A stretch of DNA of 50,317 bases from the NCBI GenBank assembly GCA_964368135.1, contig CAYIZI010000003.1, positions 1-50,317 on the forward strand, given 5' to 3'. The notes below the pieces were generated by a model. That model was given only the letters and a program-made list of their open reading frames with translations, ran no database searches and had not been told where the DNA came from. Below are positions 1,025 to 25,355 of this stretch, one piece after another. This DNA is from an uncultured Candidatus Saccharibacteria bacterium. Lineage in GTDB: Bacteria; Patescibacteriota; Minisyncoccia; 2-02-FULL-40-12. The position numbers and the translations under genes were made by a program. Positions within the stretch are counted from its first letter, which is position 1, and each line of letters opens with the position of its first letter.

Positions 1025-2587
1025 TTAGATACTTCTTCTAATTTTTTCTTCTTGATAAATTTCTAAAATGTCTCTTTCTTGAATTTCAGCCGGTCCTTCA
1101 AACTTGATTCCGCACTCAAGTCCTTCTTTAACTTCTTCCACATCAGCTTTATTGTGCTGAAGCTGGCCTAATCTGCCGGAAATCATTTTAGCTTTATTTC
1201 TTAAAACGTCAATCAGGGCTCCTCTTTTAGCATAGCCCGAAACAACTTTTCCTCCAACAATTTGATAATTGGCGCCGCTTTTGAAAAGTTTTAAGATTTT
1301 TACTTTACCCAACGGGATTATTTTTATTTCTGGTTCAAGCAGTTCGGAAAGCTCCTTTCTTAATTCTTCAATCAGTTCATAGATGACTTTGAATGTTTTA
1401 ATCGCCACCTTTTCTTTTTCGGCCAGCCGTCTGGCTGAATCCTCGGTTTCAACATGAAATCCGTAGATAAATCCCTGGCCATTGGCCGCGGTCTGGACAT
1501 CATTATCTTTTATATTGCCGATGCCGTAGCTGACCACATTATAACCCACCTCTTCGGTCCCGATGTTTTTAATTGACTCACTTATCGCCTCAAGCGAACT
1601 GTGAGTGTCGGCCTTGAACACCAGATTCATTATTTTTTTGCCTGCCCCGTAGCGATGCGAAGCATCTGCTTCGGGGTTTTCCTCCTTTAGGAACAAAGGC
1701 GGCTCAACAACTAAGGCCTGTTTGGCCGCTTCCTGTGCTTCTTTTTTGTCTTCTACGGCTTTAAACTCCTGGCCCACGTCTGGGCCTTGGCTCCAGCCAA
1801 GAGTTAAAACCGGTTGGGACGGCAGAGCTTCTTTTATGTTTTTGCCGGTAAAATCTTCCATCATTTTGATTTTGGCAAAAGTTCCGCCGCTGACAATGCA
1901 GTCTCCGATTTTTAAAGTTCCTTCTTGGACTAAAAGAGTGGCCACGCAGCCGCGCCTTGAATCCAGGTGGGACTCAATAACTATTCCCTTTGCTTTTTGG
2001 TTTGGGTCAGCTTCCAGATTTTCAAATTCGGCGGTCAAAAGGATTAGTTCTAAAAGTTCATCAATTCCTTTTCCGTTTTTGGCTGAAGTTTCAACAGCCG
2101 GAATCTGGCCGCCATAGCCCTCCAAAAAAACTCCGGCTTCAGCCAACTGTTGTTTTATCATGGCTGGCCTTGCTTCTTCTTTATCAATTTTGTTTAAAGC
2201 CGCGATAAAAGGAATTTTTGCATTTTGAATATGTTTGATTGCTTCTTTGGTTTGGGGTTTGACTCCATCGTCGGCGGCAATTACTAAAATGGCGATGTCA
2301 GCTACTTTGGCCCCGCGGCGGCGAATGGCTGAAAAAGCTTCATGCCCCGGCGTGTCCAGAAAAGTTATTTTTTTAACTTGCCCCGAACTGATTGAAGGAT
2401 GTTCGACCTGGTAAGCACCGATATGCTGGGTAATGCCGCCAGCCTCTTTTTCGGCGATTTTAGTCTTTCTGATATAGTCCAGAATTTTAGTCTTGCCATG
2501 ATCCACGTGTCCTAAAACGACCACTATTGGTGGCCGTTTAGCAGAGCTATTAGTTTTAATATTGGTTTCTTCCATAATTGTCGGCAA
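1025..2587 (-). CDS. infB: translation initiation factor IF-2 (short form, 520 aa)
   Basis: G1 motif [16 protein letters not shown] and NKID GTPase motifs, and C-terminal IF-2 domains. The start is non-ATG (TTG) at 2587, or ATG four codons downstream. Confidence 0.9.
1634..1680 (-). repeat. 47-nt in-frame hairpin element, copy in infB (peptide [15 protein letters not shown])
   Basis: Plus-strand TTTTTTGCCTGCCCCGTAGCGATGCGAAGCATCTGCTTCGGGGTTTT aligns without gaps to 7005..7051 in murB, with 36/47 positions identical. The hairpin architecture is the same, with compensatory changes. Confidence 0.75.
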
Positions 2588-2781: not shown

Positions 2782-4665
2782 ATGAAAAGATGGCTATTGA
2801 CTCTCAGCGCCGCACTTGTGTTTGCTGCTTTGTTTTTCTTTGTCCCAGGACTGTCGGCCTTACAGGTCTTGACTTGGGTTCAGAGATTCCCTTCGCAAAA
2901 TCCAGGAGCCAGATTTTTTCACAGCATGGCTTATGATGAAGCAAGAGGTGGGGCAGTACTCTTTGGCGGATTTACGGGCCAGGACGCTTTAGCCGACACC
3001 TGGGCTTGGAATGGCAGCGATTGGGTTCAGCGGTTCCCCGTTCAAAGCCCTCCAGTGAGATACAGTCATGCAATGGCATACGATGGCGCCCGCGAAGAGG
3101 TTGTGCTCTTTGGAGGATTTCCATTTCCTGCCGGGACACTTTTTTCTGATACCTGGCTCTGGAATGGTGTCAATTGGACACAATCGCCTACAAGCGGTCC
3201 TTCGCGCCGGGGCGCGCATTCAATGGCTTATGATTCTGGGCGTAGAGAAACGCTTTTGTTTGGCGGTTCAAGCCAGACTGGCGGGGTGCTTGGCGATACT
3301 TGGATTTGGAACGGTGCAAACTGGATTCAGTTGTTTCCAACTGAAGCGCCTCCGGCCCGGATGCTTTTTGGGATGGCCTATGATGAAGCAAGAGGAGAAG
3401 TTGTTTTATTCGGAGGCACGACGCTGATCGCCGGGCAAGTCTTTGGTGATACTTGGGTTTGGGATGGCATAAACTGGGCTCAAAAGTCGTCTATTCGTCT
3501 GCCTCCGGCCAGGCGAGACCACAAGATGGTTTACGACAGGGCACGCCAGAGGGTTGTTCTTTTCGGCGGGATCAGTAACGACATTGCATTTTCTGACACC
3601 TGGAGCTGGGATGGTTCAAACTGGACTGAAGAAGCACCGCTGGCAAATCCAGGGCCAAGAGCCAGATATGGTTTGGCTTTTGACTCAACCAGGAATGAGG
3701 CCGTCCTTTTTGGCGGGACCGGTTATTCTGCTGGGGTTGGCTTCGCTGACACCTGGGTTTGGAGTGAAGTTACCGTTCCGGATCCAGTCCCGATTGGGCC
3801 GGAGATTCATTACTTTGCTTTGGGCGATTCGGTGGCTTCGGGTCACGGGCTTATGGATGACGGAACTCCTTGCCGCCGTTCTGATTTGGCGTATCCAAGT
3901 AAAGTAGCCGAGCGCCTTAAGGAACGGTACAAAGAGGTTCACTTTACTTCTTTGGCTTGTTCAGGAGCGAGAGTGAATTTCCCGGTAGAATTTTCCGACC
4001 CACACAAGTTCTTTTCAAACCAAGTCAATGATGTTGTTAGTGCTTTGAGAAGGATTGACGGTGTCCCGACTGTCGTCACCATCACTATCGGTGCCAATGA
4101 CTTTGGGTGGACTGAACTTCGACAGTTCACAGATTTGTTGTATTTAAGCAACCTAAATCGGTTTCAGAGAATTGTGAACAGAATTGGTGCGTCTGTTAGA
4201 CGGACTCTTCGACAGCAGGTTCCCCGGCTTCTTAGGTTCCAGAATGTTACTGTTGTGTTGACCGAGTACCATAATCCGTTCAACACCAACAGTGTATTCT
4301 TTTTAGGACCCGGAGGCCGTTGCGGTTTAATTGAGTGCTATGACCGGACCGAGTACGCCATACATACTTTGAACAACGCAATTGTTCAAGCTTATGTTGA
4401 CTTGGGCCGGCCAAGCAATTTGAAGCTGACGCCTATTCATGGTTTGTTTCACGGTCACGAAAGCCCAAGGCCTTCGTGCGGTAACAATGGGCCAGAAGTA
4501 AACGATACTTGGGTGCAGTACAAGGATGATCCGGACTCAAATAGTTTCCCCTTCAGATTGGATTCGAGTTGGCGAGGGGATTGTATGCACCCTAATAGCC
4601 GAGGCACAGACTTTTACGCGGCTCAAGTTAACTCTGACTTGATTGGCTTGTCCTTTGGTGAGTAG
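2782..4665 (+). CDS. secreted Kelch-repeat beta-propeller fused to an SGNH/GDSL hydrolase
   Basis: ATG at 2782 is preceded by AGGAG; the track start at 2746 is an upstream TTG. A signal peptide is present. About six units of the form W-W-NG-x-W plus MAYD...VLFGG. C-terminal SGNH blocks: GDSVASG, GANDFG and DCMHPN. GC is high (58% in line 3001-3060). Confidence 0.8.
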   Translation: MKRWLLTLSAALVFAALFFFVPGLSALQVLTWVQRFPSQNPGARFFHSMAYDEARGGAVLFGGFTGQDALADTWAWNGSDWVQRFPVQSPPVRYSHAMAYDGAREEVVLFGGFPFPAGTLFSDTWLWNGVNWTQSPTSGPSRRGAHSMAYDSGRRETLLFGGSSQTGGVLGDTWIWNGANWIQLFPTEAPPARMLFGMAYDEARGEVVLFGGTTLIAGQVFGDTWVWDGINWAQKSSIRLPPARRDHKMVYDRARQRVVLFGGISNDIAFSDTWSWDGSNWTEEAPLANPGPRARYGLAFDSTRNEAVLFGGTGYSAGVGFADTWVWSEVTVPDPVPIGPEIHYFALGDSVASGHGLMDDGTPCRRSDLAYPSKVAERLKERYKEVHFTSLACSGARVNFPVEFSDPHKFFSNQVNDVVSALRRIDGVPTVVTITIGANDFGWTELRQFTDLLYLSNLNRFQRIVNRIGASVRRTLRQQVPRLLRFQNVTVVLTEYHNPFNTNSVFFLGPGGRCGLIECYDRTEYAIHTLNNAIVQAYVDLGRPSNLKLTPIHGLFHGHESPRPSCGNNGPEVNDTWVQYKDDPDSNSFPFRLDSSWRGDCMHPNSRGTDFYAAQVNSDLIGLSFGE

Positions 4666-6601: not shown

Positions 6602-7580
6602 CTAAATTTATGCCGAATTTATTTTTAACTTTTTGTTTTAAGATTTTAGCCAGCTTTATTATTTCAGATGATTTGCCTTTGCCCGGATTAAAAATCAAAT
6701 TGCCATGATGCTTAGCTACTTTGATTCTTCCAACCTTCATTCCTTTAGCGCCGACTTCTTCCAGAAGATAACCAGTTGGCACCTTGCCGTGATTGACTTT
6801 GCTTTTGTCTATTTTTGATAAAAATTTTTGCCGCAGAGCCGGCCTTACATTATTAATAACAATATTTTTGAAAAAACTGCCTGGGCACAAAAGACCAGGC
6901 CAATATTTCTTTTCTCGCATTTTTATTATTTCTTTTGATGTTTTTTGAAGTTCCTTGGGATCGCCTTTTTTAAATTTGAACTCCGCCCCCAGAATTATCC
7001 AATCTTTTTTCCCTGCCCCATAGGAAGCCGGAGGCTTTCCTTCGGGGTTTTTAAAAATACTTTCCCGGTAACCAAAACGGCATTGTTTTTTTGAGAGCCA
7101 TTGAGTTTCCTTGCCGTTATAAATTTTCACTTTTGTCAGGCAATCTTTTATCTCTTGGCTGTAGGCGCCAGCCGAACCGTAAATCGCTCCGCCGATTGTG
7201 CCGGGAATCCCGGCCATTTTCTCCATTCCAGCCCAGCCAAACTGATTTAACTTATATATAAATGTAAGAAGATTATTTCCAGCGCCGACAAAAAATCTGT
7301 TTCCATTCTTTTCAAAATTTTTAATTTCATTTTTGATTACCAATCCGTTAAAACCCGAGTCAGACGGTACCAAATTTGAGCCGTCACCAATAATATACCA
7401 TTTAATTTTACTATCTTTTGCCCAGTTAATGGCCGAAATTAAATCATTTTCCTTTTTGGCAATAAAAAAATATTTGGCTGGCCCGCCAATTTTCATAGTC
7501 GTCAGTTTTTTAAGAGGATAATTTGTTAAAATCTTGGCTTTGGGAATCATTTTGGATGTTGATAACTTTTGTTGCACCAT
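6579..7580 (-). CDS. murB: UDP-N-acetylenolpyruvoylglucosamine reductase
   Basis: FAD-binding N-terminus (TTMKIGGPAKYF, GDGSNL) and a MurB C-terminal domain. An alternative start lies at 7550. It overlaps the murC start by 23 nt. Confidence 0.9.
   Translation of the reverse strand: MVQQKLSTSKMIPKAKILTNYPLKKLTTMKIGGPAKYFFIAKKENDLISAINWAKDSKIKWYIIGDGSNLVPSDSGFNGLVIKNEIKNFEKNGNRFFVGAGNNLLTFIYKLNQFGWAGMEKMAGIPGTIGGAIYGSAGAYSQEIKDCLTKVKIYNGKETQWLSKKQCRFGYRESIFKNPEGKPPASYGAGKKDWIILGAEFKFKKGDPKELQKTSKEIIKMREKKYWPGLLCPGSFFKNIVINNVRPALRQKFLSKIDKSKVNHGKVPTGYLLEEVGAKGMKVGRIKVAKHHGNLIFNPGKGKSSEIIKLAKILKQKVKNKFGINLDEEIQYI
7005..7051 (-). repeat. 47-nt in-frame hairpin element, copy in murB (peptide NPEGKPPASYGAGKK)
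   Basis: TTTTTTCCCTGCCCCATAGGAAGCCGGAGGCTTTCCTTCGGGGTTTT. This is the partner of 1634..1680. Confidence 0.75.
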
Positions 7581-12328: not shown

Positions 12329-13231
12329 ATGAGAGTTTTGAATGCGTTGTTTCTCGGCGGCGCCATCTTGATCTGGTTTGGCTATCCGGCCATGGTTTTT
12401 GGCCAGGAACAACAGTTTAGGGTCATGGTTCAGATGGCTAATATCCGGCTTGAGCCGACCACCTCAAGTCAGATAGTTGGTCGGGCAAAGGCTGGAGCCT
12501 TGCTGACAGTTGTTAAAGAACTCGGAGACTGGGTGAGGATTTATCTTCCGGAAGATGGGAATCTCCAGAGAGTGGGGCATATCTTCAAGTCTTTGGGGGT
12601 TATTGAGAGAGCGGCCGAACCGGTAGTAAGGCCGGAGCGGGCTTCTGGGCCGGCCCCAAAGCTTTTGCCTGTTCCTGTTTCGGTTTCTGAGCCGGAACCA
12701 GCACCTCAGCCTTCGGCGCCAGCAGCTGCTTCAACTCCGGCAGAACCACAGGTAATCGTTGAGCCGGCTTCACAGCCGAACCGACCTATCCAAGCTGATC
12801 AGCCAAAGGCTCCGGGAGGCTTCGGCGCCGGCCTCCAATTGGCGGCGGCTCCGGGCGGGGCGGTTCCGAGCATTCTCTACGACCTGAACGAGCGGCTGAC
12901 CGTCAACGGCGCCATTGGTTTTTACTACGGCGCCGCAACCGGTTTTATGGGTGAACTTCTCTACCGGTTTCCCAGGCCACCGAAAAATCCTCCGTCAGAT
13001 GCTTCTTTCGAGCCGTATCTCGGCGGTGGGTTAATCTTTGTTTCGGTGAATCCGGGGTTCGGTCTTTCCAGATCATACACTGGCTTCATCGGCTCCGGCG
13101 GGACGTTTCTGACTTTCAGGAAGATTCCCCGCTGGCGGTTTAGCGGCGATATAAATCTGGTTCAGTTTGATGTCGAAAGGGTTGCGGTCGCCGGCATTGG
13201 TATCCGGCTCGGCGGTCACTACTTTTTCTGA
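12329..13231 (+). CDS. signal peptide + SH3b-like domain + Pro-rich linker + OMP-like beta-barrel tail
   Basis: GGAGG Shine-Dalgarno site. The N-terminal segment ANIRLEPTTSSQIVGRAKAGALLTVVKELGDWVRIYL is SH3b-like. The C-terminal ~130 aa show alternating-hydrophobic strands and end in GGHYFF (aromatic terminal Phe), as in OMP beta-barrels. GC is 60% in line 12661-12720. Confidence 0.65.
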   Translation: MRVLNALFLGGAILIWFGYPAMVFGQEQQFRVMVQMANIRLEPTTSSQIVGRAKAGALLTVVKELGDWVRIYLPEDGNLQRVGHIFKSLGVIERAAEPVVRPERASGPAPKLLPVPVSVSEPEPAPQPSAPAAASTPAEPQVIVEPASQPNRPIQADQPKAPGGFGAGLQLAAAPGGAVPSILYDLNERLTVNGAIGFYYGAATGFMGELLYRFPRPPKNPPSDASFEPYLGGGLIFVSVNPGFGLSRSYTGFIGSGGTFLTFRKIPRWRFSGDINLVQFDVERVAVAGIGIRLGGHYFF

Positions 13232-13243
13232 CACTGTTCATTA

Positions 13244-13282
13244 GGGCGGAAGAATCAAGGCGATTCTCCGCCCCTCTTTTTT
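13244..13282 (+). terminator. rho-independent terminator
   Basis: GGGCGGAAGAATC-AAGGC-GATTCTCCGCCC (12 bp with one bulge), followed by CTCTTTTTT. Confidence 0.7.
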
Positions 13283-13332
13283 CTAAAACCCCTTTAAAAA
13301 TCTTGATTTTTGACAAAAGAGAGATTGTCCAA

Positions 13333-13401
13333 AAACCAAGCCCGAAATGGAAAGAGGTCAATCCGGGAGGGTTCGCCAAGAAAGGCGAACAAGGCGAAGC
13401 C
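13333..13401 (+). repeat. conserved 40-nt block + covarying hairpin + GGCGAAGCC, copy 1 (intergenic)
   Basis: AAACCAAGCCCGAAATGGAAAGAGGTCAATCCGGGAGGGT matches 24531..24570 at 39/40 positions. It is followed by hairpin GTTCGCC-AAGAAA-GGCGAAC and AAGGCGAAGCC. Confidence 0.65.
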
Positions 13402-13419: not shown

Positions 13420-13463
13420 TGTGGATAATTTAAACTTGCACAATATTCAGCATGATTTATAAT
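13420..13463 (+). promoter_or_regulatory. perfect DnaA-box 9-mer (TGTGGATAA) abutting a TTGCAC-16-TATAAT promoter
   Basis: Box at 13420..13428, -35 at 13436..13441, -10 at 13458..13463. The gene ATG is at 13485. Confidence 0.45.
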
Positions 13464-13484: not shown

Positions 13485-14000
13485 ATGATTAACACTAAAA
13501 TAATAACTATAATTCTGGTTGTAATTGCCGTTGTATTATTGATGTTTATTTTTAAACCCAACCTGCCAGAAAATATTACTCAAAGTCCAACGACTTCTCC
13601 TACTCCAACTCCCAGACAAATAAACCAGAATCTTACCCAAGATGAAAATAAATTATTATCTCAAGTACCGACTCAAGGTAGCAGCCCAGAAGAGTTAATG
13701 GCCCATTATAATTTGGCGGTTAAGCTGGCGGTTAGTTCTTCCCAGCTTGAGATCGGGGGTTGTGAGGTCAAGCCCTTGGTCCTTAAAGTTAAAGACGGTT
13801 CGTCATTCACTATCAAAAATTCCAGCGGCGAAGACAGGAGTATAAGTTTTGATGCTGATAATACTATCTTTGTTCCGGCTGGGAAAACCCATGTCCAACA
13901 GGTTAAGTTTAAAAACGGCCCGGGTCTCTATGGCTACGGATGCGATTTTCCGGATATAAGGCAAGCTGCCGGATTTGTTCTGGTTGAGCCCAAACAGTAA
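13485..14000 (+). CDS. membrane-anchored cupredoxin-like beta-sandwich protein (no obvious Cu ligand set)
   Basis: N-terminal TM helix and a Pro/Thr-rich linker. The C-terminal ~100 aa follow a cupredoxin-like pattern (KPLVLKVKDGSSFTIKNSSGEDRSISF ... PGLYGYGC ... AGFVLVEP). Confidence 0.55.
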   Translation: MINTKIITIILVVIAVVLLMFIFKPNLPENITQSPTTSPTPTPRQINQNLTQDENKLLSQVPTQGSSPEELMAHYNLAVKLAVSSSQLEIGGCEVKPLVLKVKDGSSFTIKNSSGEDRSISFDADNTIFVPAGKTHVQQVKFKNGPGLYGYGCDFPDIRQAAGFVLVEPKQ

Positions 14001-19784: not shown

Positions 19785-20078
19785 ATGGCTATTAGCAGAG
19801 CCGCCCACTCTTTGCCCGATTTTTTCAGGCCCCTAATGTGGTCCTACGATTTTAATTCTTTGGATTTGGAGAAAAATAAAAAAACCATAATCGTAAATAC
19901 GATCAACTACGGCGACTTAAAGCATTGGCGTTGGATAGCGAAGCATTACGGTAAAAACAGGATTAAAGAGGTTTTAGGGGCGATCCCGGCCCAAGAATTA
20001 AGAAACAGAGCCAGAAAATTAGCTTCCCTGATTTTTTCGTTACAAGATTTCAACTATGCACCGAGAGGCGCTAAATGA
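19785..20078 (+). CDS. small protein of unknown function, upstream partner of the AbiEii-like fragment
   Basis: 97-aa ORF that overlaps the next ORF by 23 nt in another frame. The arrangement is typical of two-gene TA-like modules. Confidence 0.45.
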   Translation: MAISRAAHSLPDFFRPLMWSYDFNSLDLEKNKKTIIVNTINYGDLKHWRWIAKHYGKNRIKEVLGAIPAQELRNRARKLASLIFSLQDFNYAPRGAK

Positions 20079-20454
20079 AGAAGGCAAAAAATTATTCCCC
20101 CTTTTTAACAAGCTTTTCAATCTTATTCAGCCGTTCGTTGAATACGAAGGAGTGAGGCTGTTGAGTATTGAAGAAATCGGCGCGACGAAAGCATACGTGA
20201 TAGGCCGGCGGGGGGACTTTAAGGATTATGTCGATTTGTACTATATTTTATCCGAAGGTTATTCCTCGCTGGAAAAAATAGTTAATGTTGCTGAAACAAA
20301 GTATCAGAATGAGTTTAACTCAAGGTTATTTTTAGAGCAACTGGTGTATTTAGAAGATATAGAAGAGTCTCAACTTATATTTTTGAAAAAACAAATGGCA
20401 AAAAAAGAATTAGAAATTTTTTTTAGCGAAGCAATCAGGAACTTAAAGTTGTAA
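20056..20454 (+). pseudogene. nucleotidyltransferase AbiEii-like toxin, internally truncated
   Basis: The N-terminal MHREALNEEGKKLFPLF and the C-terminal SIEEIGATKAYVIGRRGDFKDYVDLYYIL resemble AbiEii-family proteins from memory. The catalytic segment expected between them is absent. Confidence 0.4.
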
Positions 20455-22164: not shown

Positions 22165-22713
22165 ATGTCTCAAAACCAACAAACTCTAATCCTAGCGCTA
22201 TCATTGCTTGCTGTCTCAGTTGGGTTTGCTTATAGAAGCCGGGTATCAACTCCTTCCGTATCTAAAAACACCAAGCCTGGAGAAGAGAGGCAAGTATCAT
22301 CTGTTCCAGTAGCTTCTGTTCCTTTTTTGATTTTCCCTTCCGTTGAAAGTCGGAAATTATTGAGGGAAAACTTTGACAATCGAAGCCTTGCCCTGGAGTT
22401 TAATCAATTTATTCATCCTAGCGCTGAAGAAAAATCTATGTATGAATTTGTTTATGCTGGTTCTAATAATACTGTTCTGGGTTTTGAAATATCCTACCAA
22501 TTAATCGACGGCAACTTACCCCAGGTTTATAAAGAAGAGATGGATGCGGCCGGATTAAACGGTTGGAAAATTTTAGCTGCCAATCTCGAAGATGATCATG
22601 CTTTTATAGATGTAGAAAGAAAGACGGGAAATACCAGTTTTCAAGTTCGTCTTTCTCTTGACCGGGAAAATGAATTGCTTATGGCTAACGTCCAATTTTT
22701 AATAAGTCCCTAA
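22165..22713 (+). CDS. membrane-anchored hypothetical protein
   Basis: 182-aa ORF with an N-terminal hydrophobic helix. Its stop overlaps the next start (TAATG). Confidence 0.5.
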   Translation: MSQNQQTLILALSLLAVSVGFAYRSRVSTPSVSKNTKPGEERQVSSVPVASVPFLIFPSVESRKLLRENFDNRSLALEFNQFIHPSAEEKSMYEFVYAGSNNTVLGFEISYQLIDGNLPQVYKEEMDAAGLNGWKILAANLEDDHAFIDVERKTGNTSFQVRLSLDRENELLMANVQFLISP

Positions 22714-24572
22714 TGTTTAAAAAAGTTACTTACATTTATCCTATCTTATTTCTTGTCTCTCTTTTTATTTATTTCATTCCTCAGGCCAGTGCTACCCAGC
22801 ATATTGCTCAATGCGGTTCAGATGTCGGCTGTTCCAGTGACCCCGAATGTATCGGTTGCTGTGATATCGTCCCTGTAATAACTTTTTGTCCTTCGGAAGA
22901 CTATAGAGTTGTTTGCGACCTTGATTCTGATATTACCTGCTTTGGCAGAAATAACACCCAATGGACCTGTCCACGAACTCAAAGCCATTGCGAACTTATC
23001 TATTCCGAAGGCTACTACCAGGCCGACTACTATTCCCAGGGCATTTATTACTCCCAGGGCTATTATCAGAGCTATTACCAAGGTTATTATCAGGGTTACT
23101 ATCAAGGTAGCTATGCTCAACCTGCTATTGGTAATGCAGATGTTATCAACTGCAGTACTATCGAGGGCTGGGCTTTTGACCCAGATTCATCAGCCACTTC
23201 AATTGATGTTCATGTTTATAAAGATGCCCCAGCTGGTTTAGGTGGAACTTTTGTAACAGCTCAATCTGCCAATCAACCTCGGCCTGATGTTAATGCCGCT
23301 TATGGCATTACCGGCAATCATGGTTTTTATTTCTTAACCCCCCTCTCATTAAAGGACGGAATAAATCATAGTATCTGGATTCATGCAATAGATGTCAGTG
23401 GTGGTCCGAATAATTCAATTAGTGGTGATGGTGTAGTTATTAATTGTATTGTCTACTCCCAAGGCTACTATCAGGGCTACTACCAAGGCTACTATCAGGG
23501 CTACTACCAGGGTTATTATCAAGGCTATTACCAGGGTTATTACCAAGGCTATTATGAAGGCTACTATCAGGGTTATTACGAGGGTTTTTACGAAGGCGGC
23601 TACTACTCTGAAGGTTCTTATTATTCCCAATCCTACTACCAAGGCTATTATCAGGGCTATTATGAAGGCTACTATCAAGGCTACTATCAAGGCTACTATC
23701 AAGGCTACTATGAAGGCTTTTATGAAGGCGGTTACTACTCTGAAGGTTCTTATTATTCCCAAGGCTACTACCAAGGCTACTACCAGGGTTATTACCAGGG
23801 CTACTACGAAGGTTTTTATGAAGGTGCCTACTATTCTGAAGCTTCATATTATTCCCAGTCCTACTACCAGGGCTATTACCAGGGTTATTATGAGGGTGCT
23901 TATGAAGGGGCCTACTATTCTGAAGGCGCCTACTACTCCGAAGGTTCTTATGCTTCTCCGCCTTCTGTTTCTAATGTTACCGTAACCGAACCTAATTACT
24001 GCCTCTCTGGTCCGGCCGCCACGGTGAACTGGGATTATTCTCCTGCTGGCGACCCCCAGTCAGCTTATCAGGTTATGATAGATCTACAGGGTTCTTCTTT
24101 TGCTCCGCCTTTATATGACAGCGGAAAAGTAATTTGTGAAAACTGCCGTTCCAACTCCACTCCCCAAGGCATTCTTCAATTCAACACCACCTACAAAGCC
24201 AGAGTCAGGGCTTGGAATCAACTTGATCTTGCTTCTGGTTGGACTGAATCAGCTACCTGGAAGACTCCTAATTTTGCTTACCCTCAAGTTAATTTCACTT
24301 GGGCCCCTCAATTTCCAGGCGCTGGTCAGCTGGTCCAGTTTACTGACCAGACCCAGTTCTTTGATGCCGGCGGCGGCCACACCTGGTCCTGGCTGTTTGG
24401 CGATAGCGGTTCTTCAATTCTCCAGAATCCAACCCATGCTTATAGCACTAACGGCACCTACAATGTCACCTTAACCGCTACCGATAATCAGAATCAGTCC
24501 TGCTCTTTGACCAGGCCGCTTGATATCCAGAAACCAAGCCCGAAATGGAAAGAGGTGAATCCGGGAGGGTAA
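22713..24572 (+). CDS. secreted surface protein: Cys-rich N-domain, (G/S)YYQ low-complexity arrays, beta-sandwich, FN3-like and PKD domains
   Basis: Signal peptide present. Two Tyr/Gln/Gly arrays. The C-terminal segment FTWAPQFPGAGQLVQFTDQT ... HAYSTNGTYNVTLTATD is PKD-like. Confidence 0.8.
   Translation: MFKKVTYIYPILFLVSLFIYFIPQASATQHIAQCGSDVGCSSDPECIGCCDIVPVITFCPSEDYRVVCDLDSDITCFGRNNTQWTCPRTQSHCELIYSEGYYQADYYSQGIYYSQGYYQSYYQGYYQGYYQGSYAQPAIGNADVINCSTIEGWAFDPDSSATSIDVHVYKDAPAGLGGTFVTAQSANQPRPDVNAAYGITGNHGFYFLTPLSLKDGINHSIWIHAIDVSGGPNNSISGDGVVINCIVYSQGYYQGYYQGYYQGYYQGYYQGYYQGYYQGYYEGYYQGYYEGFYEGGYYSEGSYYSQSYYQGYYQGYYEGYYQGYYQGYYQGYYEGFYEGGYYSEGSYYSQGYYQGYYQGYYQGYYEGFYEGAYYSEASYYSQSYYQGYYQGYYEGAYEGAYYSEGAYYSEGSYASPPSVSNVTVTEPNYCLSGPAATVNWDYSPAGDPQSAYQVMIDLQGSSFAPPLYDSGKVICENCRSNSTPQGILQFNTTYKARVRAWNQLDLASGWTESATWKTPNFAYPQVNFTWAPQFPGAGQLVQFTDQTQFFDAGGGHTWSWLFGDSGSSILQNPTHAYSTNGTYNVTLTATDNQNQSCSLTRPLDIQKPSPKWKEVNPGG
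23007..23114 (+). repeat. first YYQ array (36 aa)
   Basis: EGYYQADYYSQGIYYSQGYYQSYYQGYYQGYYQGSY. The DNA has 12-nt periodicity. Confidence 0.9.
23454..23951 (+). repeat. second YYQ/YYE array (166 aa) with about 3.5 super-repeats
   Basis: 12-nt GGCTACTA(C/T)CA(A/G) units are nested in larger units. Each larger unit ends in EGFYEG(G/A)YYSE(G/A)SYYSQ. The array generates three spurious shadow ORFs in the track. Confidence 0.9.
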
Positions 24573-24673
24573 GAGTGCTATGAATAGCACTCTTACGGGC
24601 ATTTTAGGCGAGCGTACCGGCGAGCCGTAAAAATGCCCTGGGTCGCGCCAAGAAAGCGCGACGTGGCGAAGCC
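24531..24673 (+). repeat. conserved 40-nt block + hairpin element, copy 2, carrying a 73-nt double-hairpin insertion
   Basis: Block at 24531..24570. The insertion at 24571..24643 holds hairpins GTAAGAGTGCTA-TGAA-TAGCACTCTTAC and GGGCATTTT...AAAATGCCC. It is followed by GTCGCGC-CAAGAAA-GCGCGAC and GTGGCGAAGCC. Confidence 0.65.
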
Positions 24674-24706
24674 CTCGTAGATTCAAGATTTAGTTATGAC
24701 TTAGAG

Positions 24707-24740
24707 AAATTAAAATTGCCGTTAACGGCAATTTTAATTT
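24707..24740. terminator. perfect 34-nt palindrome abutting the tRNA-Ser 3' end
   Basis: AAATTAAAATTGCCGTT/AACGGCAATTTTAATTT, giving 17-bp arms with no spacer. Confidence 0.6.
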
Positions 24741-24741
24741 A

Positions 24742-24827
24742 TGGCGGTGGGCAGAGGACTCGAACCTCTAAGGGCTTGCGCCCACGAGTTTTCAAGACTC
24801 GCGCCTTGCCAATTCGGCCAGCCCACC
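24742..24827 (-). tRNA. tRNA-Ser (anticodon TGA), CCA encoded
   Basis: Acceptor GGTGGGC/GCCCACC. Anticodon stem CGAGT/ACTCG with loop CTTGAAA. A long variable arm. T arm AGAGG-TTCGAGT-CCTCT. 3' GCCA. Confidence 0.9.
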
Positions 24828-24921
24828 AGACTGAAAATTCTACCAATTTTTTCAACAATTTGCAATTATTTTTTATCCGTGTTATTCTTAAATTCCTGTT
24901 TAATTTTGCGACTCCAGTTTG

Positions 24922-25002
24922 TGGATGCGCGGGTCGGAACAGGTTAATACAAAAATAAATATGGATAGTGTGCTCGATGATAATCAGTCAGCCGCGCATC
25001 CA
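24922..25002 (+). promoter_or_regulatory. long-range 11-bp stem in the 5' leader of the RRM-protein gene
   Basis: TGGATGCGCGG (24922..24932) pairs perfectly with CCGCGCATCCA (24992..25002). The stem closes 15 nt before the TTG start. Confidence 0.4.
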
Positions 25003-25016
25003 GTTTATTCAGTAAG

Positions 25017-25355
25017 TTGGCTAAGAAACTTTATGTAGGAGGTCTTCCTTATGAGACTACCGATGATGAGCTGAAAGAGCTTTTCTCCGGAGCCGGTCAA
25101 GTTGAGTCAGCTAAAGTCATCACCGACCGATACTCTGGCCGAAGCCGGGGTTTCGGATTCGTGGAGATGACTAATGATGATGAAGCTGACAAAGCGATTG
25201 AGTCAATGAACGGCAAACAGGTTGGAGAAAGGACCATTACCGTCAACGAAGCTAAACCGATGGGCGAGAAGAGAGAAGGAGGCTTTGGCGGCCGCCGAGG
25301 CGGCCGGGGCGGATTTGGCGGCAGAGACAGAGGAGGTTTTGGAAGACAGTACTAA
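25017..25355 (+). CDS. RRM-type RNA-binding protein with Gly/Arg-rich tail
   Basis: RNP2 LYVGGL and RNP1 RGFGFVEM. C-terminal GGRRGGRGGFGGRDRGGFG. TTG start. Confidence 0.85.
   Translation: MAKKLYVGGLPYETTDDELKELFSGAGQVESAKVITDRYSGRSRGFGFVEMTNDDEADKAIESMNGKQVGERTITVNEAKPMGEKREGGFGGRRGGRGGFGGRDRGGFGRQY

What the first reader, a model, noticed from the sequence alone, without database searches (positions are those of the whole stretch)
24531..24740. Copy 2 of the 40-nt element: a 73-nt double-hairpin insertion creates the host gene stop codon
**The insertion.** Relative to copy 1 (…GGGAGGGT|TCGCCAAGAAA…), copy 2 reads …GGGAGGGT|AAGAG…CCCTGGGT|CGCGCCAAGAAA…. An extra 73 nt (24571..24643) is bounded by a GGGT direct repeat. 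It consists of two strong hairpins:
- a 12-bp perfect stem, GTAAGAGTGCTA-TGAA-TAGCACTCTTAC
- a 9-bp stem, GGGCATTTT...AAAATGCCC

**Effect on the ORF.** The TAA that ends the YYQ/PKD protein (24570..24572) is assembled from the last T of the conserved block and the first AA of the insertion. Without the insert the frame would run on for 17 more codons. In copy 1 the equivalent frame continues as ...PGGFAKKGEQGEANK.

**Context.** The whole 3' region (24531..24740) is a chain of four hairpins that ends in a perfect 34-nt palindrome abutting tRNA-Ser.

**Interpretation.** It looks like a miniature hairpin insertion with a target duplication, or a modular structured 3' UTR or small RNA.
Basis: seen in the sequence. 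Interest (0 to 1): 0.65.

Follow-up and report, generated by a model that had tools for sequence, protein, structure and literature searches.

The report
Conserved three-hairpin element of Parcubacteria
The "73-nt insertion" is two of the three hairpins of a roughly 100-nt structured element that recurs at stop codons and just upstream of tRNA genes in a group of tiny groundwater bacteria; it matches no catalogued RNA family, its function is unknown, and it does not shorten the host protein.

Summary
The sequence facts hold: the GGGT-bounded 73 extra nt, both hairpins, the TAA at 24570-72 and the 34-nt palindrome. The interpretation needs correcting.

- **What the 73 nt are.** They are hairpins 1 and 2 of a conserved module, GG-hp1-hp2-YGG-hp3(-hp4), at window 24563-24673. 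I found 18 distinct loci with a canonical hp2 in Patescibacteria/Parcubacteria genomes and groundwater metagenomes, plus 2 divergent copies.
- **Structure.** Covariation is strong (10 of 12 hp1 pairs), and RNAalifold predicts the same fold independently.
- **Position.** The element always lies on the strand of the upstream gene. In 13 of the 18 loci that gene's stop codon sits inside the element. A same-strand tRNA gene often follows 4-170 nt downstream.
- **Known families.** No Rfam family reaches its threshold.
- **Effect on the protein.** Orthologous PKD genes without the element end at the same residue (…NPGG*), so the protein is not truncated. The 45-nt "conserved block" is real coding sequence for a conserved C-terminal motif.
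- **History.** The element is present, decayed or absent at orthologous loci (PKD/tRNA-Ser and rnc/khpA).
- **Copy 1 (13328-13401).** It is a rearranged fragment that lacks hp1 and hp2.

Most likely this is a dispersed structured element transcribed in mRNA 3' ends. No RNA data were available, so its function is inferred only.

The parts
24526..24572 (+). Last 15 codons plus the TAA stop of the YY-repeat/PKD protein gene (22713-24572). It encodes QKPSPKWKEVNPGG*.
   Evidence: ORF list. The Pfam PKD match ends near aa 600. All 22 homologues whose sequences were fetched end in P-x-P-x-W-[KR]-E-[VI]-x-P. Synonymous sites vary among the orthologues.
24563..24673 (+). Full copy of the conserved element: GG, hp1, hp2, YGG, hp3 and the start of hp4.
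   Evidence: Covariance model R1 scores it at 109.9 bits, E = 5.6e-29, and it is the only strong hit in the window. The fold has z = -6.2.
24569..24596 (+). hp1: GUAAGAGUGCUA-UGAA-UAGCACUCUUAC. It contains the host gene's stop codon (24570-72).
   Evidence: Inverted repeat I2. 10 of 12 pairs covary across 14 copies. The most similar hp1 is in L007, at 93%.
24597..24638 (+). hp2: GGGCAUUUU-A-GGCGAGC-GUACCG-GCGAGCC-GUA-AAAAUGCCC. The inner stem has a tandem G.A/A.G.
   Evidence: Inverted repeat I4. Contig depth in other groundwater runs is about 10 times background here. The tandem GA alternates with Watson-Crick pairs in other copies. L035 has a divergent but isostructural version.
24639..24641 (+). 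Linker UGG (YGG in the family). Together with the GU of hp3 it forms the second GGGU.
   Evidence: The two G columns (79, 80) are invariant in alignment A2.
24642..24662 (+). hp3: GUCGCGC-CAAGAAA-GCGCGAC.
   Evidence: Regex and alignment. 3 of 7 pairs covary. The stem differs from copy 1 by compensating changes.
24663..24677 (+). hp4, an optional module with core GGCGAAGCC (24665-24673).
   Evidence: The same core follows the element in copy 1, L018 and L003.
24707..24740 (.). Perfect 34-nt palindrome between the convergent PKD gene and tRNA-Ser. Probably a bidirectional terminator. It is not part of the conserved element.
   Evidence: Inverted repeat I1, 17+17 nt, 100% complementary. It is absent from the other loci.
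24742..24827 (-). tRNA-Ser(tga), convergent with the PKD gene. A promoter-like site TTGCAA-17-TAGAAT lies at 24865-24837.
   Evidence: ARAGORN, Rfam tRNA 55.9 bits, promoter scan. The same gene order is found in L025 and L031.
13328..13372 (+). Copy 1, part 1: an intergenic 45-nt copy of the PKD gene's 3' coding end. Both differences from copy 2 are synonymous in that frame.
   Evidence: There is no similarity further upstream: score 14 against a shuffle mean of 14.8.
13371..13401 (+). Copy 1, part 2: hp3 (GUUCGCC-AAGAAA-GGCGAAC, 13371-13390) and the hp4 core GGCGAAGCC (13393-13401). hp1 and hp2 are absent.
   Evidence: Downstream local alignment scores 34 against a shuffle maximum of 26. The weak CM hit is 14.5 bits. 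No polymorphism was seen in population contigs.
13244..13285 (+). Context of copy 1. A terminator-like hairpin plus T-run of the upstream gene (12329-13231) lies here. A promoter-like TTGCAC-16-TATAAT for the next gene lies at 13436-13463. Copy 1 sits between the two.
   Evidence: Read directly from the sequence. The simple scan did not report either site.

Best explanation
Window 24563-24673 is one intact copy of a dispersed, conserved element of about 100-110 nt found in a clade of Parcubacteria (Patescibacteria/CPR).

**Layout.** The order is GG, hp1 (11-12 bp, closed by GU..AC), hp2 directly adjacent (9 bp, an internal loop, 7 bp, and the loop GUACCG), the linker YGG, hp3 (7 bp, loop C-A/C-AGAAA), and sometimes hp4 (GGCGAAGCC).

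**Shown.**
- It is a family with subfamilies and compensatory base changes.
- It always lies on the sense strand of the upstream gene and usually engulfs that gene's stop codon.
- It is often followed by a tRNA gene on the same strand.
- At orthologous loci it is retained, decayed or lost.

**Inferred.**
- It is transcribed as the 3' end of the upstream mRNA, and as the 5' leader of the downstream tRNA precursor where one follows.
- It acts at the RNA level as a folded 3'-end module. It would be a barrier to 3' exonucleases and/or a landmark for processing, left at the end of the mRNA after termination or after RNase P frees the downstream tRNA.
- New copies arise by duplication or insertion next to a GG(G)U.
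- Copies are remodelled by deletions between short repeats.

**The two window copies.** Copy 1 (13328-13401) is a rearranged fragment: 45 nt of PKD 3' coding sequence joined at GGGU to hp3-hp4.

**Effect on the protein.** The element supplies the AA of the TAA stop codon, and the preceding T lies in the GGGU shared with hp1's first pair. It does not change where the protein ends.
For: **Family and structure**
- The exact hp2 core occurs in 6 stretches from 4 MAGs (metagenome-assembled genomes), 3 of them labelled Patescibacteria, Parcubacteria or Saccharibacteria. It also occurs in 15 true metagenome stretches.
- That makes 18 distinct loci, with two further divergent copies, L003:2720-2823 and L035.
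- Other groundwater runs show about 10 times the background contig depth over 24590-24645.
- 91.8% of cells are paired, against about 40% when the partners are slid. 14 pairs have changes on both sides, and no shuffle out of 500 reaches the observed values.
- RNAalifold finds the same three hairpins on its own.
- The tandem G.A/A.G in hp2 would be pyrimidine mismatches on the other strand, which favours folding of the + strand.

**Position**
- In 13 of 18 loci a same-strand ORF of 92-627 codons stops inside the element.
- The host genes are unrelated to one another: RNase III, a sugar transferase, bS21, an FtsB-like protein, a cupin, an HD-domain protein and the PKD protein.
- Same-strand tRNA genes lie downstream in L004, L011, L012, L015-L018 and L021.
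- In the window and in L006 the element lies between convergent genes, ahead of a terminator. It is therefore a 3' element there, not a 5' leader.
- In L019 and at copy 1 the next gene's promoter lies downstream of the element.

**Evolution**
- Orthologous copies differ by compensatory pairs (L005/L007 and L008/L019).
- Non-orthologous loci share hp1 subtypes: L004 = L012 at 100%, window and L007 at 93%.
- The PKD orthologue L031 keeps a degenerate hp2 at the same place (score 24 against a shuffle mean of 13.7; 1 of 500 shuffles as high). L025 and L032 have nothing there.
- At rnc-khpA the element is present in L019, L008 and L035. It is absent in L033 and L034, where the spacer is 16 nt, although their RNase III is 87-91% identical to that of L019.
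- PKD homologues end at the same residue with or without the element.
Against: - No transcript data exist. Three RNA-run searches returned nothing, so transcription, RNA ends and any stabilising effect are all inferred.
- Counts of G.U against A.C pairs do not separate the strands.
- Co-orientation with genes could equally reflect a replication-strand bias of a DNA-level element.
- The hp2 stems are nearly invariant in sequence, which is unusual for a helix that is only structural. This suggests sequence-specific recognition by a protein or another nucleic acid. It is partly an artefact of my search pattern, which fixed TTTTA, GTACCG and GTAAAAATG.
- The element is dispensable at individual loci.
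- The 18-19-nt tRNA 5' fragments in front of four copies are unexplained.
- So is the contrast in copy 1 between 96% identity in the 45-nt block and about 70% in hp3-hp4.
Confidence: 0.55

Rival explanations
1. DNA-level mobile element. The hairpins form in single-stranded DNA and are recognised by a transposase or recombinase supplied in trans. This would resemble hairpin-ended IS200/IS605 derivatives (PATEs) or REP/RAYT elements, which insert 3' of a short target (here GG or GGGU). Any effect on RNA would be incidental.
For: - The family is dispersed, with subfamilies shared by non-orthologous loci in different genomes.
- It is present or absent at orthologous loci.
- Composite and nested forms exist in L035, L003 and L021.
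- The left boundary is constant, lying after GG in very different contexts: Gly or Trp codons next to a stop, and the tRNA D-loop G18G19.
- The hp2 stems are invariant, as expected for a protein-binding site.
- The strand bias would fit insertion biased by replication strand.
Against: - hp1 and hp3, the would-be ends, vary freely in sequence while keeping their pairing. hp1 alone has at least three sequence classes, so one enzyme is unlikely to recognise the ends by sequence.
- There are no terminal inverted repeats and no duplication flanking the whole element.
- Copy number looks low, at 1-2 exact-core copies per MAG.
- Copies group by locus rather than by genome, and orthologous copies show compensatory evolution. 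That indicates long vertical retention under selection for pairing.
- Loss at the PKD locus looks like decay, not excision.
- No transposase gene lies next to any copy in the loci I read. That was not checked systematically.
Confidence: 0.25
2. The 73 nt (hp1+hp2) are an independent miniature insertion that duplicated a GGGT target inside a pre-existing 40-nt element. The insertion truncated the host ORF.
For: - GGGT flanks the 73 nt on both sides.
- Copy 1 looks like an empty site.
- L003 and L021 show that extra hairpins can be added between hp2 and hp3.
Against: - hp3 follows hp2 in 15 of the 16 other canonical loci that can be read past hp2, and is degenerate in L008.
- Only one hp3 without hp1/hp2 (copy 1) exists in all the DNA fetched.
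- YGG-GU before hp3 is a conserved feature of every copy, not a target duplication specific to this site.
- The "40-nt element" is coding sequence for a conserved protein tail.
- Orthologues without hairpins stop at the same residue.
- Contigs from the sampled populations show no joint that removes the 73 nt.
Confidence: 0.08
3. A self-contained functional RNA that happens to sit next to genes. Candidates are a trans-acting small RNA, a protein-sequestering RNA, a self-cleaving ribozyme that cuts near GG|GU, or a ligand or protein sensor.
For: - Conservation is strong and covariation is clear.
- Variable expansion segments sit between conserved helices, as in many functional RNAs (L003, L021, L035).
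- GG and YGG are invariant and unpaired.
- The L016 copy weakly resembles the Rfam gyrA motif: a GUC..UUGAU..GAC hairpin and a CCAGAAA tail.
Against: - No Rfam family, including all known ribozyme and riboswitch classes, reaches its threshold.
- No promoter of its own is apparent, and the copies overlap the stop codon of the upstream ORF.
- The conserved nucleotides lie mostly in helices rather than junctions.
- The host and downstream genes share no functional theme.
- The element is dispensable at orthologous loci.
Confidence: 0.1

Closest known systems
Modular interspersed hairpin repeats of bacteria: BOX elements of Streptococcus pneumoniae, REP/BIME of enterobacteria, Correia elements of Neisseria (from my own knowledge, not tested here)
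   Same: - Short (about 100-150 nt) and dispersed.
- Built of separable hairpin modules whose number varies between copies.
- Sit at the ends of genes and are co-transcribed with them.
- Can stabilise or process mRNA 3' ends.
- Present or absent between related strains.
   Different: - No sequence similarity to any of them.
- Low copy number.
- No terminal inverted repeats and no TA/TSD as in Correia elements; no GTAG head as in REP.
- Regularly overlaps the stop codon.
- Strongly linked to downstream tRNA genes.
- One module (hp2) is almost invariant while the others covary.
IS200/IS605-derived hairpin elements (PATEs) and REP/RAYT systems (from my own knowledge)
   Same: - Hairpins rather than inverted terminal repeats.
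- Strand-specific.
- Fixed short sequence (here GG/GGGU) immediately 5' of the element.
- No flanking duplication of the whole element.
   Different: - The end hairpins differ in sequence between copies.
- No associated Y1 transposase was seen.
- Orthologous copies persist with compensatory changes, which points to a cellular function.
Rfam RF01740, gyrA RNA motif (Pseudomonas, candidate cis-regulatory RNA; listed in PMC2864571)
   Same: - A first hairpin closed by GUC..GAC with a UUGAU loop.
- An immediately adjacent second hairpin.
- Then CCAGAAA (alignment).
   Different: - The score is 23.3 bits against a gathering score of 45, and only one copy (L016) is hit. The window copy, L015 and L035 are not.
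- Different phylum.
- 3' of genes rather than a gyrA 5' UTR.
- In gyrA the tail is unpaired; here it forms hp3.
tRNA punctuation of polycistronic transcripts (mitochondria; bacterial mRNA-tRNA co-transcripts cut by RNase P). This is an analogy of function only.
   Same: A folded RNA unit sits between an ORF and a tRNA, so RNase P cleavage at the tRNA 5' end would leave the mRNA ending in the structured element.
   Different: - The element is not tRNA-like. ARAGORN and the Rfam tRNA model do not call it.
- Many copies have no tRNA downstream.

Membership tests
Any Rfam 15 family (4227 models, including ribozymes, riboswitches, RNase P, tmRNA, SRP, 6S) | Covariance-model score at or above the family's gathering score. 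| tested here: not met
   Only tRNAs pass in the window. Permissive scans of copy 2, copy 1 and three other loci give nothing better than gyrA at 23.3 bits against 45.
MITE / Correia-type miniature transposon | Terminal inverted repeats at the two ends of the element. | tested here: not met
   The element is three consecutive hairpins. Its two ends share only GU..AC (alignment, inverted repeats).
MITE / Correia-type miniature transposon | Target-site duplication flanking the whole element. | tested here: not met
   The second GGGU lies inside the element (before hp3) in every copy. Nothing is repeated after hp3 or hp4.
REP/BIME | A 20-40-nt imperfect palindrome headed by GTAG, tens to hundreds of copies per genome, and a RAYT gene. 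| tested here: inconclusive
   There is no GTAG head. One full copy occurs in 50 kb of the window, and 1-2 exact-core copies per MAG. The presence of RAYT could not be examined.
IS200/IS605-derived PATE | Subterminal hairpins, insertion 3' of a fixed tetra- or pentanucleotide, and a Y1 transposase in the genome. | tested here: inconclusive
   A fixed GG(G)U lies 5' of hp1 in all copies, but the end hairpins differ in sequence between copies. No whole genome could be searched for a transposase.
Intrinsic (Rho-independent) terminator | A G+C-rich hairpin followed directly by a U-run on the transcribed strand. | tested here: not met
   The scan reports no + strand terminator in 24300-25100. hp1-hp3 are not followed by U-runs. 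The separate palindrome at 24707-24740 is the likelier terminator.
tRNA / tmRNA / tRNA-like gene | Cloverleaf with acceptor and T arms. | tested here: not met
   ARAGORN and the Rfam tRNA model call only the neighbouring true tRNAs. Four copies carry only an 18-19-nt tRNA 5' fragment.
Structured RNA under selection for pairing (generic criterion) | Compensatory changes that keep the helices across independent sequences, above controls. | tested here: met
   14 pairs have double changes, the covariation score is 0.331 against 0.110 in shuffles (0 of 500 as high), and slid controls give at most 0.075. RNAalifold gives the same fold. A single-stranded DNA hairpin would pass this test as well.
Transcribed 3'-UTR element | Present in the transcript of the upstream gene, with a defined RNA 3' end. 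| not testable with these tools
   No RNA runs hold these sequences.

The most novel reading that the evidence does not exclude
This is a previously undescribed class of structured RNA specific to Parcubacteria that marks gene ends. It would be a three-hairpin "punctuation" module that engulfs stop codons and precedes tRNAs. Its near-invariant hp2 would be bound by a dedicated protein or RNase to define mRNA 3' ends and tRNA precursor processing in these reduced genomes. Alternatively, it is the first hairpin element known to home to GG in stop-codon contexts and in tRNA D-loops.
Probability: 0.25. Interest if true: 0.7.

Novelty: new member of a known kind. Interest (0 to 1): 0.5.

Why it matters
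Candidate-phyla-radiation bacteria have tiny genomes with little non-coding DNA, and almost nothing is known about their RNA biology.

- A roughly 100-nt element kept at gene ends, with clear compensatory evolution and one nearly invariant hairpin, is a concrete handle on how these organisms finish, protect or process transcripts. It could instead point to a new kind of small mobile DNA.
- For annotation, it explains why several unrelated ORFs in these genomes carry odd 1-5-residue C-terminal tails (GL*, GG*, WVKVS*). It also warns against reading the hairpins as a truncating insertion.

Tried and rejected
- **Known RNA families.** Rfam at gathering and permissive thresholds on both copies and on other loci gave nothing but tRNAs and a weak gyrA hit.
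- **Resemblances recalled from memory.** I considered the RNase P S-domain, tmRNA, SRP RNA, group II intron domain V, a K-turn, hammerhead, twister and HDV-like ribozymes, CRISPR repeat/tracrRNA-like scaffolds and integron attC. I rejected them because no model matches, or because the required core sequence or topology is absent from alignment A2.
- **5' block as an RNA element.** The genome scan for the 45-nt block found nothing, and so did the viral scan. The block turned out to be protein-coding.
- **Phage or plasmid origin.** There were no matches in viral contigs, phage records or plasmid records.
- **Copy 1 as a decayed PKD pseudogene.** There is no similarity upstream of the 45 nt.
- **Population polymorphism of the 73 nt.** The laid contigs show no such joint. 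Contigs drop rare variants, so this is weak evidence.
- **Strand from wobble pairs.** I counted 4-5 G.U against 3-5 A.C, which is not informative.
- **Promoter inside the element for downstream tRNAs.** No acceptable -35/-10 pair could be read in hp2 or hp3, so this idea was dropped.
- **Literature.** Searches for CPR/Parcubacteria repeats or RNA motifs found nothing relevant. The gyrA motif appears only as a table row in PMC2864571.
Full report
**1. The observation**

- The ORF 22713..24572 (+, 619 aa) has Tyr-rich repeats followed by Ig-like and PKD domains. It ends with TAA at 24570-72.
- A 45-nt stretch (24526-24570) recurs at 13328-13372 with 43 of 45 identical bases. None of 100 shuffles gave two matches.
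- After the shared ...GGGAGGGT, copy 2 has 73 extra nt (24571-24643), ending again in GGGT. Both copies then continue with a hairpin whose stems differ by compensating changes (UUCGCC/GGCGAA against CGCGCC/GCGCG) and with GGCGAAGCC.
- The hairpins and the perfect 34-nt palindrome next to tRNA-Ser(tga, minus strand, 24742-24827) are as described.
- The 225-nt stretch folds with z = -7.0.
- Removing the 73 nt would add 16 codons before a TAG.
- Copy 1 is intergenic. It lies between a terminator-like hairpin of the gene 12329-13231 and a TTGCAC-16-TATAAT promoter-like site of the gene that starts at 13485.

**2. The insert is not unique**

- The window comes from Hainich groundwater, 0.1-µm fraction.
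- When contigs of other groundwater runs were laid on the region, depth over 24590-24645 was about 10 times the background. Many different contigs were 80-95% identical there.
- An hp2-core pattern found 6 stretches in 4 MAGs. Three are labelled Patescibacteria, Parcubacteria or Saccharibacteria and one Gammaproteobacteria.
- A looser pattern with free stem positions found 17 metagenome stretches, 2 of them chance hits in coding sequence.
- After removing duplicates there are 18 distinct loci with a canonical hp2. Two further divergent copies are L003:2720-2823, found by my covariance model, and L035.
- Nothing was found in viral contigs, phage records or plasmid records.

**3. Anatomy**

- Alignment A2 (14 copies) gives this order: an invariant GG; hp1 of 11-12 bp closed by GU..AC; hp2 directly adjacent (GGGCAUUUU-A-GGCGAGC-GUACCG-GCGAGCC-GUA-AAAAUGCCC); the linker YGG; and hp3 (GUUUCGC-CAGAAA-GCGAAAC).
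- An optional hp4 (UUGGC-GAA-GCCA) follows in the two window copies, in L018 and in L003.
- Counting pairs gives 91.8% paired, against 35-46% when partners are slid. 14 pairs have changes on both sides, 10 of them among the 12 pairs of hp1. The covariation score is 0.331 against 0.110 in shuffles, with 0 of 500 shuffles as high.
- RNAalifold predicts the same three hairpins independently.
- The outer stem of hp2 never varies in this sample. My search patterns partly forced that.
- L035 has an hp2 of the same architecture but different sequence (GGACAAUUU-A-GCCUGC-GUU-GCAGGC-GUUAAG-AAUUGCCC).
- In 8-9 copies the inner stem of hp2 carries a tandem G.A/A.G that is Watson-Crick in others. On the opposite strand these would be pyrimidine mismatches, so the + strand is the folding strand. 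Wobble counts alone do not decide the strand.
- L003 and L021 have 60-90 nt of extra hairpins between hp2 and hp3.

**4. Context**

- In 13 of 18 loci a same-strand ORF of 92-627 codons ends inside the element: at the start of hp1 (GGG-UAA/UGA), one codon later (GGG-UUA-UAG), in the hp1 loop or its 3' strand, and once inside hp2.
- The host genes are unrelated to one another: RNase III, a sugar transferase, ribosomal protein bS21, an FtsB-like protein, a cupin, an HD-domain protein and others.
- Same-strand tRNA genes follow within 4-170 nt in eight loci.
- In the window and in L006 the element lies between convergent genes, ahead of a terminator. There it can only be a 3' element.
- In L019 the promoter of the next gene lies downstream of the element.
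- Four copies are preceded not by an ORF but by the first 18-19 nt of a tRNA, ending at the D-loop GG (L003a, L015, L016, L018). I cannot explain this. A deletion between the similar strings GGUYAGAGC (tRNA D-arm) and GGGUCARAGC (start of hp1) is one possibility.

**5. The 45-nt block is coding sequence**

- Homologues of the last 192 residues come from Candidatus Yanofskybacteria and other Patescibacteria and are 45-73% identical. All 22 whose sequences were fetched end in P-x-P-x-W-[KR]-E-[VI]-x-P plus 0-2 residues.
- Their DNA varies at synonymous sites.
- The block is therefore the gene's real 3' end, not an RNA element.
- In copy 1 the similarity starts abruptly. Upstream of the block the local alignment score is 14, against a shuffle mean of 14.8. 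It continues through hp3-hp4, with a score of 34 against a shuffle maximum of 26.
- Copy 1 is thus a displaced fragment, [45 nt of PKD 3' end]-GGGU-[hp3-hp4].
- It is fixed in the sampled populations.
- Why its 45 nt are 96% identical to copy 2 while hp3-hp4 are only about 70% identical is unexplained. Recent gene conversion, or recombination between different copies at GGGU, are possibilities.

**6. History at orthologous loci**

PKD locus:
- L025 has the same gene order (PKD, tRNA-Ser(tga) on the minus strand, RRM protein). It ends ...CCGGGAGGATAG with no element.
- L032 ends GGGAGGGTGA, followed by unrelated sequence.
- L031, the closest homologue, ends GGGAGGGTAG. It keeps a degenerate hp2 (GGGCUAUUUUA...GCGUAAAAAU) and the 5' strand of hp3 at the same position. 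The score is 24 against a shuffle mean of 13.7, with 1 of 500 shuffles as high.
- So the element is older than the split between the window lineage and L031. It decays by deletion, and the protein ends at ...NPGG with or without it.

rnc-khpA locus:
- The native RNase III C-terminus is ...KK-x-W plus 0-2 residues.
- L019, L008 and L035 carry the element directly after the UGG, which extends the ORF by four codons.
- L033 and L034 have RNase III 87-91% identical to that of L019. They have only a 16-nt spacer there.
- In a tree of RNase III sequences the carriers are not a single clade.

Pattern across loci:
- Orthologous copies differ by compensatory pairs (L005/L007, L008/L019).
- Non-orthologous loci in different genomes share hp1 subtypes (L004 = L012; the window copy is 93% identical to L007).
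- Together this indicates occasional spread to new sites, long vertical retention under selection for pairing, and occasional loss.

**7. What it most likely is**

- *Shown:* it is a conserved, dispersed, strand-specific three-hairpin element of a Parcubacteria clade that sits on stop codons and in front of tRNA genes.
- *Inferred:* it is transcribed with the upstream gene and acts as a folded RNA 3'-end module. It would block exonucleases and/or act as a processing landmark, left as the mRNA terminus after termination or after RNase P releases the downstream tRNA.
- The overlap with stop codons is expected in very compact genomes. It also follows from the element carrying stops in two of its three frames within hp1 and in the third within hp2.
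- The main rival is a DNA-level hairpin element moved by an enzyme acting in trans. I cannot exclude it, because no whole genomes or transcript data were available.

**8. Comparison with known things**

- No Rfam family matches. The best match is the gyrA motif, at 23.3 bits against a gathering score of 45, on a single copy.
- By anatomy and behaviour it is closest to modular interspersed hairpin repeats such as BOX, REP/BIME and Correia elements. It shares neither sequence nor their defining ends with them.
- Literature searches found no description of it.
- I rate it a new family of a known general kind, with moderate interest. The local finding itself, an "insertion that creates a stop", is largely explained away.

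Noticed in passing
window 24531-24569; proteins P0001-P0023: A family of Patescibacteria PKD-domain proteins shares an extreme C-terminal tail, P-x-P-x-W-[KR]-E-[VI]-x-P plus 0-2 residues. It has no transmembrane segment. It could be a sorting, anchoring or recognition signal.
   Followed up: partly
L003:2706-2724, L015:674-691, L016:275-292, L018 about 3027-3045 (minus strand): Four element copies are preceded by the first 18-19 nt of a tRNA, ending at the D-loop GG. The 5' strand of hp1 (GUCARAGC) continues like the D-loop and D-stem. L016 and L018 are orthologous tRNA arrays, and each carries as its fragment the 5' end of the other's tRNA-Val(gac).
   Followed up: partly
L035:1458-1660; L003:3494-3690; L021:3372-3552: There are composite or expanded versions of the element. 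L035 has two hp1-like hairpins, a divergent hp2, an hp3-like hairpin and a partial canonical hp2. L003 and L021 have 60-90 nt of extra hairpins between hp2 and hp3.
   Followed up: partly
L016:287-385: A sub-threshold match to the Rfam gyrA RNA motif RF01740: 23.3 bits, gathering score 45. It shares a GUC..UUGAU..GAC hairpin and a CCAGAAA tail. The window copy, L015 and L035 are not matched.
   Followed up: partly
L019, L008 and L035 compared with L033 and L034 (rnc-khpA spacer): Where the element is absent, the khpA promoter appears to use a -35 (TTCACA) inside the end of rnc together with the -10 TAATAT. Where the element is present, a new TTGATT or TTGCCT -35 follows it at the right spacing.
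   Followed up: no
window 23001-23956: The PKD protein gene contains a long array of degenerate repeats with a 12-nt period, encoding Tyr-rich units (YY-S/E-G). The other groundwater runs hold contigs that skip 89 nt (24300 to 24390, X8) and 198 nt (24302 to 24501, X5) in the coding sequence further downstream, in and just before the PKD domain.
   Followed up: no
window 1634-1680 and 7005-7051: A 47-nt terminator-like hairpin (TTTTTTGCCTGCCCCGTAG...CTTCGGGGTTTT) occurs twice at 77% identity.
   Followed up: no
window 19785-20454: Overlapping small ORFs with DUF6922 and AbiEii (nucleotidyltransferase toxin) Pfam hits. This is probably a toxin-antitoxin pair upstream of the PKD operon.
   Followed up: no
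window 1-28753: Eight tRNA genes lie in about 29 kb, three of them tRNA-Ser. Only the tRNA-Ser at 24742-24827 has the element nearby, and it is on the opposite strand.
   Followed up: no
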